A stretch of DNA of 64,000 nucleotides from the human T2T-CHM13v2.0 reference genome, Homo sapiens (GCF_009914755.1 NC_060937.1), one strand, 5' to 3'; positions 30,669 through 59,934 are shown, counted from the stretch's first letter. The notes: a model not told the origin generated them from the sequence alone. A program made the numbers and translations.

Positions 30669-32105
30669 TATAATCCCAGAGAAAACCCAGTCTTCTCTAT
30701 TACTCAAGTACCTTCTAAATGAGATCAAATGAAAGTGGTATGAAAACATTACCTTTCTCCCTCCAGAAGCGATGGGCGTTACCTTTGGGATGAATCCATT
30801 TGATGGAAGTGAAGTATTGTTCAGAGTGTGGCAGAAGATAGAGGAGTGTCCATTATTGCTAACACCTTGTGAGTCAGGGTGAGAGGAGGAATGTGCCCAG
30901 TACAGCTGGAAAACAGCTCAGAGGTGAAGCCCCTTGTCCACTGTCACCTGGCTGGGATAGGCAGGTGACGTGGTTCTTCACTTCAAGCCTGGCAGTCTTC
31001 AGAGCCCTTGTAGTGCAAAAATAACACCGTAGCATCTCCCAGGAAACACCACTTACTGTCCCTGCTAGTGTTGGGAAAGAAAGGAGGACACTCTTTAGAA
31101 GTGTCTTTTACAATGAGACTGATAATGGACTGTGTCTCAGAGCCATGAAAGGAAAGGAGAAGTTGTAGGATTTCCTGGGAATGTCAGCTAACTTGAGCCT
31201 AGGGGCCTGAGCCCAAGGGCAGACTGAGGCTCCCCCGGCACAGGGAGGTGCTGCCTGTGACAAGGGGGTAGTGCTGGCACAGTGCAGGCTACTCCCTAGA
31301 AAGATCAGCTTGAACATGCAGGAAGAGCAGGACCCTTGGGCTGAGGCACAGGTAGAATGGGAAGTTCATGGTAGTAATTTAGTTCTCCAGAGGCCAGAAG
31401 TAGGAGGAGAGGTTGGAAGGCTGATTGCCCAAAGGGAAACCCTGGACTACCCTGGCGTCCCACAGGACTCTCATAGTACTTGCGGCTCCCTGCAGTGGGG
31501 AGGCCAGAAGGAGTGTTGCCCAATGCTGTCCTCATCCAGTCCACCCCCACCCACCACCAACGGGTGGGTATGGTCATGAGTGTGGTCAACTCATCAGTCA
31601 TTTGCTCAGCTGTGAAAAAGAAATTGTTCAGAGAAGAGCAAAGTGTTTTTCCATGAGCCAAAGGTCGGCCAAGGTATGCTAATGAGGAGGACTGGAGACA
31701 GCGCATCACAGACACTGATAAGGAGCACTGGGCAAGGGCACTTCTCCCAGGGCAGAGCCCACAAGGAGTGTCCTGGCACCAGATGCTCAGGGAACTGAAG
31801 GCTGGCAGGGGCCTGCCCAGTAGTCTCTCGCCCACCGCATGCCTTTAGGCTACAGCCTCCCAGGCCCCGTGCCCCCTCCCCTCCCCCGTGCCACACTGGG
31901 GAAGATGCTGACCCTGAGAATGGTGCAACCATCTGCCTGCCCCTGGCCACCTCTCACCAGCACGTGAATGCTCTTGGGCTCAGTTCTGTATCTGCAGTAG
32001 GAGGGTGTTTATCCACGTGACAGAGTCTCACCATTTGACATTTTATGTCTTTCAGTCTGTCAAAGATCTAGAACATATTGTGATAGAATTAAAAAGTTTA
32101 CTTTT

Positions 32106-32415
32106 GGCTGGGCAAGGTTGCTCAAGCCTGTAATCTCAGCACTTTGGAAGGCCGAGGCAGGTGGACCACTTGAGGTCAGGAGTTCAAGACCAGCCTGGCC
32201 AATATGGTGAAACCTCGTCTCTACTAAAAATACAAAAATTAGCCAGATGTGGTGGTACATGCCTGTAATTCCAGTTACTCGGGAGGCTGAGGCAGGAGAA
32301 TTGCTCGAACGCAGAAGGCAGAGGTTGAAGTGAGCAAAGATTGTGCCACTACACTCCAGCCTGGGTGACAGAGTGAGAATCCACCTAAAAAAAAAAAAAA
32401 AAAAAAAAAAAAAAA
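32106..32415 (+). mobile_element. AluSx
   Basis: Full dimer, long A tail, approximate TSD aaaagtttactttt. Confidence 0.9.
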
Positions 32416-33857
32416 GAGTTTACCTTTTCCTGTTTATGCGCATACAGGTATTTGGGTACCACGTTTGTAATTCACAGTTAGTTTGAAAGATAGAAATTGA
32501 AACAGTATGGTTGGGAGCCTGGTATGTAAGCCGTTTGCTGGTGGGCATGTGTGTATTGGGCCCTTGTATGTACGATCTCTGTGATCCCATCATTACTGTT
32601 CATTTCTTCCAGGAGAGGAATGACACACTTCTCCCTTTAATTGCCAAATTATCTCCAATTCTGAATCAGTGGAATATAATTTAATATGATTTTACTATGA
32701 TTAATTCAGGGTCATTCTCTCCCAGGTGCTGCTGGGCTAGGATAAAATGAGATCTGAATTACATTAAAATAATTAAGTATTCCAAGAGAAGAGGTGACAG
32801 AATGGTTTAAGTGGGTGTGTAGTTTAGATAACCTAGATGCAGATAAGCTGAATAAAGCATTTAATCCAGCACATTCGTATTTTAACTTGATCATCAGCAA
32901 TGGGAGTTTGAAACCCGATTGCAGCTGCAGGTCCCACACAACTGAATTTTGTTCCTTGCGCACAGCAGTGTTTTCTGGAGGTGCCTGGAGGTCTGAAGGT
33001 GTCCCCTTTTATAGGCAGGAATTCCACCAGGATGGGTATAGCTTGTTTTTTTAAAAGGCTTGGGACTGGATACGATTGCCCAAGAAGACAGAAAAATTAG
33101 CAAACTTTATTCCAGTAAGAAAGTTTGGGATGTACTGCTTCAGTCCCTGTCCTAAGGAAATTATCAAGCCTGGAGGGTGGGGTGCTATCAACTGCCTGCC
33201 AACATGTTACCTTCTGACATCCAGAAGCTTCCCTGTGCCAGATGGAGCCACCAATGTGGGGAGGAGAGCACAAAGAGCAGAGAATCCACAGAAACCATAC
33301 CTGCAGGGAGCAAACACCATCACACTCCACTTAATGCAAATGCATTTACCTATTCTTACCATCTCCCTCAGCATGTTGAATCTATTCTGGGGTTAGACAA
33401 GCTCCCAGACTTATCTGCTATGTTTAATAAAAACAATTTTGGCTTTTAATGGTAAAGGAAGAATCGGGGCTATTAAAATACTTAAGAGTGAGAAAGTTGA
33501 AAAAAGATGTAGATTGCGTTTGGCCTGTCTTCCCCCCACCGTAAAAGGTTGCCACTCAGCTGGAGGCCTGCTGGTTCGTGTGGGCCAGCCCTCCACACCT
33601 CAGTGACCAAATGAAATACAACCCTCACTAGAGCTTCTTGTACTTGGCAAGACCCAGGGGTAGACCTGGGCTACCAAACAAAACCTTGTGTTCTTAGAGC
33701 CTGGGAACAACAGCTTTGACAGTTTCCACAAAGAACTCTTCCGCAGCATTAGCATTTTTATTTTCACCTACCTGTAGCCATTACTACATTGAACTCTGGG
33801 AATGTCACGTCAGCTGTTCTTGAGATAAAATACCATTTGCTATTTTTTTTTCTCTAG

Positions 33858-57661: not shown

Positions 57662-57723
57662 CTCTGCAGTTAAAAATATTTTGGAGGCAATAAGGCAGGC
57701 ACAAACCATAGTTCCGGTTCTTC
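57662..57723 (-). pseudogene. TPTE2P1: TPTE2-like exon (62 nt) carrying the Arg of the CX5R loop
   Basis: (G)RTGTMVCACLIASKIFLTAE. The HCKGGK exon is not in the window. Confidence 0.92.
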
Positions 57724-59934
57724 CTAGAAAAGAAAAGTATTTCAAGGAACATACGTGGTATAAAAATACACTCAGAAATATTCAAGGAGTGCATTTTAAG
57801 TTGATTTTTCTTTTTTTTGAGACAGGGTCTTGTGTCACGCAGGCTGGAGTGCAGTGGCACAATCTTGGCTCATTGCAACCTCTGCCTCACAGGTGAAAAA
57901 TACGCAAATTACATTTACAGTAAAAATATCTCTCACCATCTCTCCACAAAAGGACACGATGAGGTTTTTACTAAATCTGTAAGAAAGCAACAATTATGTC
58001 TTTTATAATTTTTTTGGATAATAGTAAAAAAGAAAAATTCCCAACTCATTGAGTACATTAATATAACTGATTCCAAAATTGCACAAATACAGTAGGATAT
58101 TTTTACACCAGTCTCACATATAAATGTAGATTTTAAAATATACATATATTTTCAAAGTGAATTCAGCAATGTAGAAACACCATGTATCAACACCAAGTGC
58201 CATTTCTCTTAAGGATGCAAGGATTTTTTTCCAAGATGGCAGATTACAGGCTTTTAGCATGCCTCAGTCATTTGGAAATAGCAAGCAAGTACATAAAGAC
58301 CAACTCTGTGAGCTTTAATTCAAGAAAGAAAATGGCAATTCCCCAGAATGATGAAGGACATCCCAGATCCTGGGGAGGACATTGCAGGCAAGCAGCCCTC
58401 AGGACAGCATTTGACTGATAAAAGTGAGTGAAGCCTCAGTATGTGAGAGAGGCAGACAGCATCCCTCTGTCTCACCTTTCCACTGGAGATCCACGCAACC
58501 CGGGCAGAGGAAGAGATTGTTTCTCCCAAACCTTGACGATCATTTGAGGAAAGACTTGGAGACTTTGTGGGGGAAAGACACAGGGAAACGCTGCCGGCAT
58601 TGTCCCAAACCTGGACTGGGAGCAGGACAACACTGGGGGAATCTTCCCTATCTGGCTCCACCCATCTTGTGCCCCCAATCCCCAATCTGAGGGAGCTCAG
58701 ATTAATGTGTACTCAGGAAATCAGCCCATTCCTGGGGCAGCAGAAAGCTCCTCCCAATAAACAAGGATCAAGTACACAGCCAGCAGCACTGGCAACAGCC
58801 AGCTCTTACCCATGGCGCCATCTACTGGCTTGTAGGTCAAACCACACACCCAATATAAAACCTGCTGGCAGAAGTGCATAGGGCTGCAGAAGCAAAGCCA
58901 AAAGACCCTACCCAGCATGCTCTACAGCCACACCCCCTAGAGAGGAGGGAAAGGGAAAGAAGAAAAAAAATAACAATAATATTATAGAAAAGGAAAGAAA
59001 AAGAAAAAATCCTACCCAATCAAAAATAATTACACAAATTAGAAGTGCTAGTATCTCCAGATGAGAGGGACCCACGCAAGAATTCTGGCACCATGAGAAA
59101 TCTGAATGTAGTGACACTACCAAAGGATCACACTAGCTCTCTGGCAATGCTTCGTGCCAAAATGAAAACTCAGAGATGACAATAAACATTTCAAAGCTTG
59201 GGTTGCAAGGAAGCTCAATGAGATTCAAGGTTGAAATCAACAAAAAGAAACTTCTACATCAATCCAGGAAATGAAGGAAGAGATAAACATCTTAATAAGA
59301 AATCAATCAGAACTTCTAGAATTAAAAAAAACTCACTTAAGGAATTTCAAAATACAACTGAAAGCTTTATCAATAGACTGGACAAAGTAGAAAACATAAT
59401 TTCAGAGCTTGAAGACTGGTCTTTTGAACTAATCCAGTCAGACAAAGATAAAGAAAAAAGATTTTTTAAAAGTGAAGAAAGTCAGAAATATGAGATTATG
59501 TAAAGTGATCAAACCTACGAATTACTGGCATGCCCTAGAGAGAAACAGAAAAAGAAAACAGCCTGGAAAACATATTTGATGGAATAATTCAAGAAAATTT
59601 ATTGAATCTTGCTAGATAGACATCTAAGTACAATAAAGCCAGACAGCACCTGTGAGATACTATAAAAAATGAACATTACCAAGGCATATACTCACCAGAC
59701 TGTCCAAGGTCACTGTCAAAGAAAAAGCCCTAAAGGCACTGGAGAAAAAGGCCAGATCACATACAAAGGTAGCCCCATCAGGATAACAGCAGACTTCTCA
59801 GCAGAAACCTTAGAAGCCAGGAGAGATTGAGGGATCTATTTTCAGAATTGTTAAAGAAAATAAATTATAATCAACAGATTCATATCCTGCCAAACTAAGC
59901 TTCCTGAGTGAAGGAGAAATAAAAACATTTTTCT

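What the first reader, a model, noticed from the sequence alone, without database searches (positions are those of the whole stretch)
31305..58700. ORF0-like chimeric gene: antisense ORF of an old L1 5'UTR splices in frame to the TPTE terminal exon and on to cryptic exons
Seen: on the minus strand of the L1 5'UTR an ATG at 58600 (acaATG) opens MPAAFPCVFPPQSLQVFPQMIVKVWEKQSLPLPGLRGSPVE. It ends at a strong donor GAAAG|GTGAGA (exon end 58476, phase 2) whose intronic bases supply the stop codon, so splicing removes the stop. Of the seven TPTE exons, only the terminal one (starts 41772) is phase 2, giving ...[34 protein letters not shown]. That exon has an internal donor TTTG|GTAAGA (41681, phase 1). 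A 90-nt phase-1 cryptic exon with good sites (33300-33211, ctccctgcag|...GAAG|GTAAC) continues the frame as G-MVSVDSLLFVLSSPHWWLHLAQGSFWMSE, 102 aa so far. A further strong acceptor (tttctttttcacag, exon start 31609) is again in frame with the open stretch ending at 31305, which would give 203 aa. Established: young primate L1s have an antisense promoter and ORF0, whose donors fuse to nearby exons. Inference: this older, differently organised L1PB-type 5'UTR did the same independently and gave a promoterless TPTE remnant a new first exon, N-terminus and tail. I recall a putative TPTE2P1 protein in public databases, so the peptide may be catalogued; the L1-antisense origin is the part that may be unappreciated.
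Basis: partly seen in the sequence, partly recalled or inferred. Interest (0 to 1): 0.82.

Follow-up and report, generated by a model that had tools for sequence, protein, structure and literature searches.

The report
TPTE2P1 starts in antisense old L1
The TPTE2P1 pseudogene RNA really does begin on the antisense strand of an old LINE-1 element and splice into a leftover TPTE exon, but this was already catalogued and nothing suggests that the resulting open reading frame makes a working protein.

Summary
The sequence facts hold. The minus-strand ATG at 58600, the donor after 58476, the in-frame join to the TPTE terminal exon (41772-41681) and the join to 33300-33211 are all present. These three exons equal exons 1-3 of RefSeq NR_178209.1.

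Exon 1 lies wholly inside the 5'UTR of a full-length plus-strand L1 whose 5' end is near 58222.

The L1-antisense origin is not new. Table S1 of Criscione et al. 2016 lists 8 TPTE2P1 ESTs as L1 antisense-promoter transcripts from an "L1PA15-16" element, not L1PB. It also lists TPTE2, TPTE2P3 and TPTE2P6. The exon and its donor are shared by all six close paralogs, so the remnant inherited this start rather than gaining it.

A chimeric SVA on chr15 carries this exon spliced to four TPTE exons.

The coding reading is weak:
- The frame is no more open than a neighbouring frame.
- 20% of shuffles are open.
- Paralog changes are almost all non-synonymous.
- Two strong upstream ATGs precede the start.
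- The annotated ORF (138 aa) stops in an Alu exon well before the last exon junction.

The exon proposed at 31609 is not annotated. There is no homology to ORF0.

Verdict: a known L1-antisense chimeric lncRNA, of low interest.

The parts
58222..59100 (+). 5'UTR of a full-length old L1, short form. Pieces 58222-58634 and about 58641-59100 are contiguous here, but lie 0.94-1.25 kb apart in six dispersed copies.
   Evidence: 6 of 6 dispersed full-length copies start aligning at 58221-58231, stop at 58626-58634 and resume at 58664-58735. One search gives gaps of 942-1251 bp; other copies reach back to about 58641. Criscione 2016 Table S1 labels the element L1PA15-16 on the + strand.
58476..58744 (-). 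TPTE2P1 exon 1, wholly antisense L1 5'UTR and spanning the internal deletion junction. It holds uATGs at 58729 and 58665 and the ORF ATG at 58600. Its donor is GAAAG|GTGAGA.
   Evidence: hub RefSeq table (NR_178209.1); (Kozak contexts).
41681..41772 (-). Exon 2, the 5' part of the TPTE terminal coding exon read in its native frame (end of the PTEN_C2 domain). It is cut short by a TPTE2P1-specific donor, TTTG|GTAAGA.
   Evidence: 9 of 9 paralogous loci examined lack the GT (most read GGCGAG, chrY reads GGCAAG).
33211..33300 (-). Exon 3, non-TPTE DNA that derives from the region upstream of SLC25A15.
   Evidence: L052 (chr13:40.02M) matches 33089-33352 in inverted order relative to 33353-34074.
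32263..32384 (-). Exon 4 of NR_178209.1, inside an Alu, with a GC donor. The annotated-transcript ORF (138 aa) stops here, at about 32277-32275.
   Evidence: translation and splice sites. (Alu matches 32102-32421). Hub masked list 32088-32425.
31305..31609 (-). The frame is open and the acceptor is plausible, but the exon is not annotated and has no support.
   Evidence: The hub table lists no such exon for either TPTE2P1 transcript.
43564..57723 (-). Five TPTE exons skipped by the annotated transcript: 57723-57662, 55861-55781, 52141-52036 (acceptor AG mutated to AC), 50111-50020 and 43634-43564.
59222..59830 (+). Degenerate L1 ORF1.
   Evidence: ORF1-like frames. (Transposase_22 at E=0.0057, below the cut-off); 59718-59930 aligns to young L1 ORF1 at 75% identity, E=1e-35.
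59935..61984 (-). SVA insertion with a 16-bp target-site duplication. It lies 1.2 kb upstream of the TSS in the gene's direction and is absent from the two paralogs that can be compared.
62677..62898 (+). Fragment of the L1 ORF2 endonuclease domain.
   Evidence: E=2e-26 to L1 ORF2p endonuclease structures (1vyb and others).

Best explanation
TPTE2P1 is a non-coding chimeric RNA of the 'L1 antisense-promoter transcript' kind.

- An old full-length L1 sat in antisense orientation in the TPTE intron that follows the catalytic P-loop exon. This was before the TPTE/TPTE2 segmental duplications. RepeatMasker calls the L1 L1PA15-16, as quoted by Criscione 2016.
- Transcription starts on the L1's antisense strand, at about 58724-58810.
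- It runs toward the L1's 5' end and uses a consensus donor 254 nt inside the L1 (after 58476).
- This alternative first exon is shared by the paralogs.
- The TPTE2P1 duplicon holds only the 3' part of the gene, so this is its only start.
- In the annotated isoform the exon joins directly to the terminal TPTE exon.
- Two substitutions specific to this copy created a GT donor inside that exon. The RNA therefore continues into SLC25A15-upstream-derived, Alu and other downstream exons.
- The ATG-to-Alu open frame (138 aa in the annotated isoform) is a by-product of stop-poor sequence and matching phases.

Shown: the anatomy, the L1 mapping, the sharing among paralogs, the new donor, and germline use of the exon (the chr15 fossil).
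Inferred: that the promoter activity resides in the L1 sequence itself, and that the ORF is not productively translated.
For: Transcript and L1 mapping:
- Exons 1-3 equal RefSeq NR_178209.1 (hub table).
- The L1 5' end is at about 58222, with ORF1 and ORF2 downstream on the + strand.
- Criscione 2016 Table S1 has 8 ESTs for TPTE2P1, 1 for TPTE2, 5 for TPTE2P3 and 3 for TPTE2P6, all antisense to L1PA15/16-type elements. The TPTE2P1 rows are marked manually validated and PacBio-detected. I saw these supplement rows and four main-text passages.
- Mapping the hg19 EST ends by the gene-end offset puts 7 of 8 5' ends at window 58724-58810. This is my arithmetic and assumes the two assemblies are collinear here.

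Sharing among paralogs:
- ATG, frame and donor are intact in 6 of 6 close paralogs (92-97% identity).
- chr15:32886127 onward holds exon 1 ending exactly at the donor. It is joined to four TPTE exons and then to SVA sequence, flanked by a target-site duplication, with AATAAA and a poly(A) tail. The four exons match TPTE2 residues 308-413 at E=5e-32.
- The GT donor in the terminal exon is absent from 9 of 9 paralogous loci.
- Homology to the TPTE2 locus ends at about 72485 in window-extended coordinates. No PTP signature motif lies on the minus strand of the window plus 20 kb.

Against coding:
- Differences from the paralogs in the 41 codons are non-synonymous:synonymous 5:0, 5:0, 8:0, 8:0, 9:0 and 8:1. 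The comparisons are not independent.
- Among 24 usable dispersed copies, the ORF frame is stop-free in 13 and a neighbouring antisense frame in 16.
- 4087 of 20000 shuffles are open.
- uATGs at 58729 and 58665 have strong Kozak context.
- The stop lies in exon 4 of 7, 515 nt before the last exon junction.
- Only 30 aa of the C2 domain are retained.
Against: - No expression, CAGE, Ribo-seq or proteomic data could be consulted here, so 'not translated' is inferred, not shown.
- The ATG has an adequate Kozak context (A at -3). Both uORFs are very short (2 and 5 codons), so re-initiation is possible.
- The frame is open in all six close paralogs.
- 8 of 25 dispersed copies still keep ATG, open frame, phase and donor. 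The family ancestor therefore probably had this module.
- A TPTE2P1-specific SVA 1.2 kb upstream overlaps a RefSeq 'enhancer' feature and may contribute to activity at this copy.
Confidence: 0.85

Rival explanations
1. One reading: an ORF0-like fusion gene. The L1-antisense ATG is used, and a chimeric protein is made from the L1-antisense peptide, the 30-aa C2-domain tail and novel sequence (102-203 aa). The protein has a function.
For: The frame is continuous across real, annotated junctions. The ATG has A at -3. The TPTE exon is read in its native frame. The ATG-ORF-donor arrangement was probably ancestral to the L1 family (ATG in 20 of 25 copies, GT in 22 of 25).
Against: - There is no coding signature. 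Nearly all paralog changes are non-synonymous, the frame is no more open than another antisense frame, and 20% of shuffles are open.
- Two strong uATGs precede the start.
- In the annotated isoform the stop falls in an Alu exon, with three junctions downstream.
- Thirty residues of a 133-position C2 profile cannot form the domain.
- The 41-aa peptide has no Pfam match.
- The 203-aa version needs an unannotated exon.
Confidence: 0.06
2. The start site is driven not by the L1 sequence but by the SVA inserted 1.2 kb upstream at 59935-61984. The SVA lies in the same orientation as the gene and overlaps a RefSeq enhancer feature. It would act as promoter or enhancer, or by read-through.
For: The SVA is on the gene's strand, immediately upstream, and is specific to this copy among those comparable. 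The hub table marks 59857-60711 as an enhancer.
Against: - Paralogs without this SVA also give ESTs starting antisense in the same L1: TPTE2P6 and the TPTE2P3 region.
- The chr15 fossil best matches TPTE2 and TPTE2P6 (97%) rather than this copy (95%).
- The RefSeq exon starts 1.2 kb downstream of the SVA's poly(A) end.
Confidence: 0.08
3. Exon 1 is an ordinary ancestral TPTE exon or promoter that merely resembles repeat sequence.
For: It is conserved at 92-97% in all close paralogs.
Against: The 58400-58635 and 58690-59250 stretches are dispersed repeats, with 376 and 659 first-look candidates. They are contiguous with L1 ORF1 and ORF2 on the + strand. The paralog identity equals that of the flanking intron.
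Confidence: 0.01

Closest known systems
L1 antisense-promoter chimeric transcripts (LCTs; Speek 2001 and Nigumann 2002 recalled; Criscione et al. 2016, PMC4908685, passages and Table S1 seen)
   Same: Transcription starts on the antisense strand inside an L1 5'UTR, and a donor inside the L1 is spliced to exons of the neighbouring gene. TPTE2P1 itself is in Criscione's Table S1 with 8 ESTs.
   Different: The canonical antisense promoter lies in the L1HS/L1PA2-8 type of 5'UTR. This 5'UTR shows no similarity to that type. Criscione's text says older L1s have only minor 5'UTR antisense activity.
L1 ORF0 (Denli et al. 2015; recalled, and cited in the PMC5860796 passage seen)
   Same: An antisense ATG-initiated short ORF in an L1 5'UTR is interrupted by a splice donor, so it can fuse in frame to downstream exons.
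   Different: - There is no sequence homology: peptide tblastn best E=1.7 and 5'UTR blastn best E=0.61 against 6 young L1 loci.
- There is no sign of selection on the frame.
- There is no translation evidence.
- The ORF is in frame with only one of the six located downstream TPTE exons.
Exon-trapping / 5'-transducing SVAs such as the MAST2-SVA F1 group (Hancks 2009 and Damert 2009; not held, recalled from titles)
   Same: The chr15 element is an SVA whose 5' end is replaced by spliced host exons. It has a target-site duplication and a poly(A) tail.
   Different: Its first trapped exon is the L1-antisense exon studied here, followed by four TPTE exons. I found only one copy with that exon. Whether it is in those papers could not be checked.
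TPTE2 / voltage-sensor phosphatase family (PDB 9c49, 3awe)
   Same: Exon 2 encodes the last roughly 30 residues of the C2 domain in the native frame.
   Different: No P-loop, phosphatase domain or complete C2 domain can be encoded from this start.

Membership tests
L1 antisense-promoter chimeric transcript | Transcript 5' end lies inside an L1, on the strand opposite to the L1. | tested here: met
   The RefSeq exon 1 start at 58744 lies inside the L1 5'UTR 58222-~59100, which is on the + strand (hub table). There are 8 ESTs in Criscione Table S1.
L1 antisense-promoter chimeric transcript | Splicing from a donor inside the L1 to non-L1 exons. | tested here: met
   The donor after 58476 is 254 nt inside the L1 and joins to 41772 (RefSeq). 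The same donor joins to TPTE exons in the chr15 retrocopy.
L1 antisense-promoter chimeric transcript | Canonical antisense promoter of the L1HS/L1PA2-8 type of 5'UTR. | tested here: not met
   There is no similarity between 58222-59100 and 6 of 6 young L1 loci (best E=0.61), while the ORF1 part aligns at E=1e-35 as a positive control.
L1 ORF0 | Sequence homology to the ORF0 peptide or to the young L1 5'UTR. | tested here: not met
   tblastn of the 41-aa peptide against 6 young L1 loci gives a best E of 1.7. 4 of the 6 loci carry a 71-aa antisense ATG-ORF at the place recalled for ORF0.
L1 ORF0 | Antisense ATG-ORF with an internal or terminal splice donor that allows fusions. | tested here: met
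   The arrangement is also kept in 8 of 25 dispersed copies.
L1 ORF0 | Frame maintained beyond chance, or under constraint. | tested here: not met
   The ORF frame is stop-free in 13 of 24 copies against 16 of 24 for another antisense frame. 4087 of 20000 shuffles are open. Paralog changes are 43 non-synonymous to 1 synonymous, summed over six non-independent comparisons.
L1 ORF0 | Evidence of translation. | not testable with these tools
   No Ribo-seq or proteomics data are on hand. The listing of the 24 papers that hold 'TPTE2P1' shows none on translation, judged from titles and abstract starts only.
TPTE/PTEN phosphatase | Catalytic C(X)5R P-loop. | tested here: not met
   A regex for the signature found nothing on the minus strand of the window plus 20 kb. 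The exon after the L1 starts at TPTE2 residue 308, just past the loop.
TPTE/PTEN phosphatase | Complete C2 domain. | tested here: not met
   The ORF keeps only profile positions 102-131 of 133.
Exon-trapping SVA (the chr15 element only) | Host exons joined at their exact splice boundaries to SVA sequence, with target-site duplication and poly(A). | tested here: met
   the boundaries coincide with 58476, 57723/57662, 55861/55781, 52141/52036 and 50111/50020. The target-site duplication is GAAAATGTA, and AATAAA plus an A-run are present.

The most novel reading that the evidence does not exclude
The progenitor of this old L1 family carried its own antisense ATG-ORF-splice-donor module, unrelated in sequence to ORF0. 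If so, such modules arose more than once in unrelated L1 5'UTRs. In the TPTE2 gene family the module became a shared alternative first exon. In TPTE2P1 it happens to fuse in frame to the C2-domain tail and yields a translated 102-138 aa chimeric protein.
Probability: 0.05. Interest if true: 0.55.

Novelty: already known. Interest (0 to 1): 0.22.

Why it matters
TPTE2P1 is used in many cancer and association studies as a "pseudogene lncRNA". Knowing that its only promoter is the antisense side of an old L1 explains why its expression may follow L1 or repeat de-repression rather than TPTE2 regulation.

That fact is already in a published supplement, however. The in-frame ORF adds little without translation data.

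The more useful by-products are two:
- The L1-antisense exon is an inherited alternative start of the whole TPTE2 family.
- A germline fossil of that transcript exists as a chimeric SVA on chr15.

Tried and rejected
- Literature searches found nothing relevant for SVA + TPTE2 + transduction, TPTE + 'antisense promoter' + LINE-1 and SVA + TPTE + retrotransposon.
- Hancks 2009 and Damert 2009 are not held, whether asked by DOI or by PMC id. I cannot say whether the chr15 or chr3 chimeric SVAs are already described.
- I asked whether the roughly 1 kb gap in this L1's 5'UTR is a splice-type (SpIRE-like) deletion. The sequences of six dispersed copies at the two breakpoints show no GT...AG boundaries, so I rejected this. 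Whether the gap is a locus deletion or a subfamily form stays open.
- I looked for the source SVA of the chr15 element in the intron after the fourth trapped exon, in seven paralogs including the window. Only Alu and short SINE-R-like matches turned up.
- I wondered whether exon 3 is under special constraint, because it has 1-3 differences in 131 bp among paralogs. The surrounding 2 kb is also 93-95% identical with many 98-100% windows, so this is not remarkable.
- The Pfam scan of 150 minus-strand ORFs in 41790-50030 found one further TPTE exon, not two.
- PDB search with the ORF1-like frame 59222-59503 gave nothing.
- I did not run the large protein-database searches, structure prediction or complex prediction. 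The ORF is spliced, so it is not a contiguous translation, and the answers would not change the verdict.

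
Full report
**1. Observation**

On the minus strand there is an ATG at 58600 that opens 41 codons. They end at the donor GAAAG|GTGAGA, with the exon ending at 58476. Read unspliced, the frame stops at the intronic TGA.

Joining to 41772 reads the TPTE exon in its native frame:
- The 30 residues from 41771-41682 match Pfam PTEN_C2 at E=9.7e-9, above the curated cut-off, at profile positions 102-131 of 133.
- They also match residues 479-507 of human TPTE2 chain 9c49_A.

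The internal donor TTTG|GTAAGA after 41681 and the exon 33300-33211 keep the frame open to 102 aa. A join at 31609 would give 203 aa, with a stop at 31305.

The first three exons are exactly exons 1-3 of RefSeq NR_178209.1 in the hub table. That transcript goes on to 32384-32263, not to 31609. Through the annotated exons the ORF is 138 aa and stops in exon 4, which lies in an Alu and has a GC donor.

I placed five skipped TPTE exons precisely: 57723-57662, 55861-55781, 52141-52036, 50111-50020 and 43634-43564. Their entry phases are 1, 0, 0, 1 and 0, and the terminal exon's is 2. The seventh exon was not found.

**2. The L1**

On the + strand there are several L1 features:
- ORF1-like frames at 59222-59830. 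They align to young L1 ORF1 at 75% identity, E=1e-35.
- An ORF2 endonuclease fragment at 62677-62898, E=2e-26 to L1 ORF2p structures.

Six dispersed full-length relatives all begin to align at 58221-58231, which marks the L1 5' end. They align to 58626-58634, then skip 942-1251 bp of their own 5'UTR, and resume at 58664-58735. Other copies reach back to about 58641.

This copy therefore has a short 5'UTR. Exon 1 (58744-58476) spans the junction between the two pieces and is wholly antisense L1 sequence.

The breakpoints show no GT...AG boundaries, so this is not a splice-type deletion. Whether it is a deletion or a subfamily form is open.

**3. Already in print**

Table S1 of Criscione et al. 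2016 (PMC4908685; I read parts 1 and 30 of supplementary file 3 and four main-text passages) lists 8 ESTs for TPTE2P1 as L1 antisense-promoter transcripts.
- Their sources are brain, germ-cell tumour and kidney tumour.
- The L1 is called 'L1PA15-16' on the + strand.
- The rows are marked as manually validated, 'detected in PacBio RNA-seq: yes' and 'previously identified: no'.
- The same table lists TPTE2 (1 EST), TPTE2P3 (5 ESTs, L1PA16) and TPTE2P6 (3 ESTs, L1PA15).

Shifting the hg19 coordinates by the gene-end offset puts 7 of the 8 EST 5' ends at window 58724-58810. This is my arithmetic and assumes collinear assemblies.

[quoted passage not shown] Even so, the L1-antisense origin is catalogued, and the label is L1PA15-16, not L1PB.

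The 24 papers that hold 'TPTE2P1' treat it as a pseudogene lncRNA. I saw the listing only, plus passages from two of the papers.

**4. Inherited, not gained**

The 58400-58800 stretch has six copies at 92-94% identity: chr13:18.63M, 13:23.79M, 13:13.47M, chr21:10.54M, chr14:5.97M and chrY:27.37M. There is also an older copy at chr13:51.45M, which is collinear with the window through the non-L1 flank at 85%.

All six close copies keep the ATG, the 41-codon frame and the donor. The older copy keeps the ATG and a GT donor, but its frame is broken.

Homology with the TPTE2 locus continues past the L1 to about 72485 in window-extended coordinates and then ends. No PTP signature is found on the minus strand of the window plus 20 kb. 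The duplicon is therefore a 3' gene fragment whose only start is the inherited L1-antisense exon.

Two changes are not shared by the whole family:
- The GT donor inside the terminal exon is specific to TPTE2P1. 9 of 9 paralogous loci lack it, and most read GGCGAG.
- The acceptor of exon 52141-52036 is AC here and in the chr13:23.79M copy. It is AG in the four other copies examined.

**5. A germline fossil**

chr15:32886127 onward carries the following, in order:
- exon 1, from about window 58690 to exactly 58476;
- the four TPTE exons listed first in section 1, each joined at its splice boundary;
- SVA sequence entered in its Alu-like part.

The whole element is about 4.65 kb. It is flanked by a GAAAATGTA duplication and ends in AATAAA plus an A-run. 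The four exons match TPTE2 residues 308-413 at E=5e-32.

Exon 1 there is 97% identical to the chr13:18.63M and 23.79M copies and 95% to the window. It includes the exon whose acceptor is broken in the window and in the chr13:23.79M copy. The source was therefore another paralog, most simply TPTE2.

This shows that the L1-antisense exon and its donor were used in the germline of an ancestor. With these exons the L1 ATG frame is out of phase and closes early (sequence, my reading).

**6. Coding potential** (unless stated)

I took 25 of the 30 dispersed rows and left out 5: C2:48631868, C5:88462639, C24:3858101, C23:89053645 and C5:137207773. Among these 25 copies:
- 20 keep the ATG;
- 22 keep the GT;
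- 8 keep ATG, open frame, phase and GT together.

The ancestor of the family therefore probably had this arrangement. However, the frame is stop-free in 13 of 24 usable copies, against 16 of 24 and 7 of 24 for the other two antisense frames. 4087 of 20000 shuffles of the 123 nt are also open.

Differences between the window and each close paralog within the 41 codons are non-synonymous:synonymous 5:0, 5:0, 8:0, 8:0, 9:0 and 8:1. The comparisons are not independent.

Other points against a protein:
- Two upstream ATGs (58729 and 58665) have G or A at -3 and G at +4, and open 2- and 5-codon frames.
- The 138-aa stop lies 515 nt upstream of the last exon junction. By the usual rule this makes the RNA a target of nonsense-mediated decay (established knowledge).
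- The L1-derived 41 aa have no Pfam match.

**7. Relation to ORF0**

The window's L1 5'UTR has no similarity to six young L1 loci, with a best E of 0.61. The peptide gives no tblastn hit better than E=1.7. The ORF1 control aligns.

The arrangement works like ORF0 on paper: an antisense ATG, a short frame and a donor. It is not a member of that family, and nothing shows that it is translated.

**8. Verdict**

This is a correct and careful reading of the sequence. The thing itself is a known, annotated L1-antisense chimeric lncRNA. The protein and the 203-aa extension are unsupported.

Noticed in passing
L015:2627-5501 plus L053 (chr15:32886127-32890775): A chimeric SVA of about 4.65 kb. Its 5' end is the L1-antisense TPTE exon 1 spliced to four TPTE exons and then to the SVA Alu-like region. 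It has a GAAAATGTA target-site duplication, AATAAA and a poly(A) tail. It is the only copy found with this first exon. I could not check whether it is described in print.
   Followed up: yes
L054 (chr3:100184842-100185800, minus strand): A second chimeric element. A GC-rich exon is spliced to the same four TPTE exons and then to SVA through a different, more upstream acceptor. The GC-rich exon matches chr21:10605052 and chr13:13539596, about 68 kb upstream of the TPTE L1, so it is probably the canonical TPTE first exon. The same GC-rich exon also matches chr20:55366351 and chr22:38863048, so there may be a small family of TPTE-exon SVAs.
   Followed up: partly
window 59935-61984 (minus strand): An SVA with a 16-bp target-site duplication (59920-59935 and 61985-62000) is inserted in the L1 just after ORF1. 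It is absent from the chr13:23.79M and chr13:51.45M paralogs. Its 3' part overlaps the RefSeq 'enhancer' 59857-60711, and it lies 1.2 kb upstream of the TPTE2P1 start.
   Followed up: partly
window 52142-52143 (minus strand): The acceptor of TPTE exon 52141-52036 reads AC here and in the chr13:23.79M copy. It reads AG in the four other copies examined. This shared disabling change links the two 13q12.12 pseudogenes.
   Followed up: yes
window 58635-58690: This L1 lacks 0.94-1.25 kb of 5'UTR that is present in six dispersed relatives. The breakpoints have no splice-like boundaries. All TPTE paralogs share the short form. Whether it is a deletion or a subfamily form is unresolved.
   Followed up: partly
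window 33089-34074: Exon 3 lies in DNA derived from upstream of SLC25A15. At the parent locus (L052, chr13:40.02M) the piece 33089-33352 is inverted relative to 33353-34074. The paralogs carry about 475 extra bases at window 33090.
   Followed up: partly
window 47006-47763 (minus strand): Short stretches resemble the 3' (SINE-R) part of SVA, at 75-92% identity to the chr15 element. They overlap the RefSeq 'enhancer' 47346-47925 and are also present in the chr13:23.79M paralog.
   Followed up: no
window 59790-63567: Relative to the TPTE2 locus, the window holds 3.8 kb more here (L1 body plus the SVA). TPTE2 and four other paralogs diverge from the window at 59790.
   Followed up: no
L044 and L052 (chr13:40.02-40.04M): An 81%-identical copy of the TPTE terminal-exon region lies next to the SLC25A15 parent locus. 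This fits that site being the ancestral TPTE position. My recollection is that the two genes are neighbours in mouse; I did not check this.
   Followed up: no
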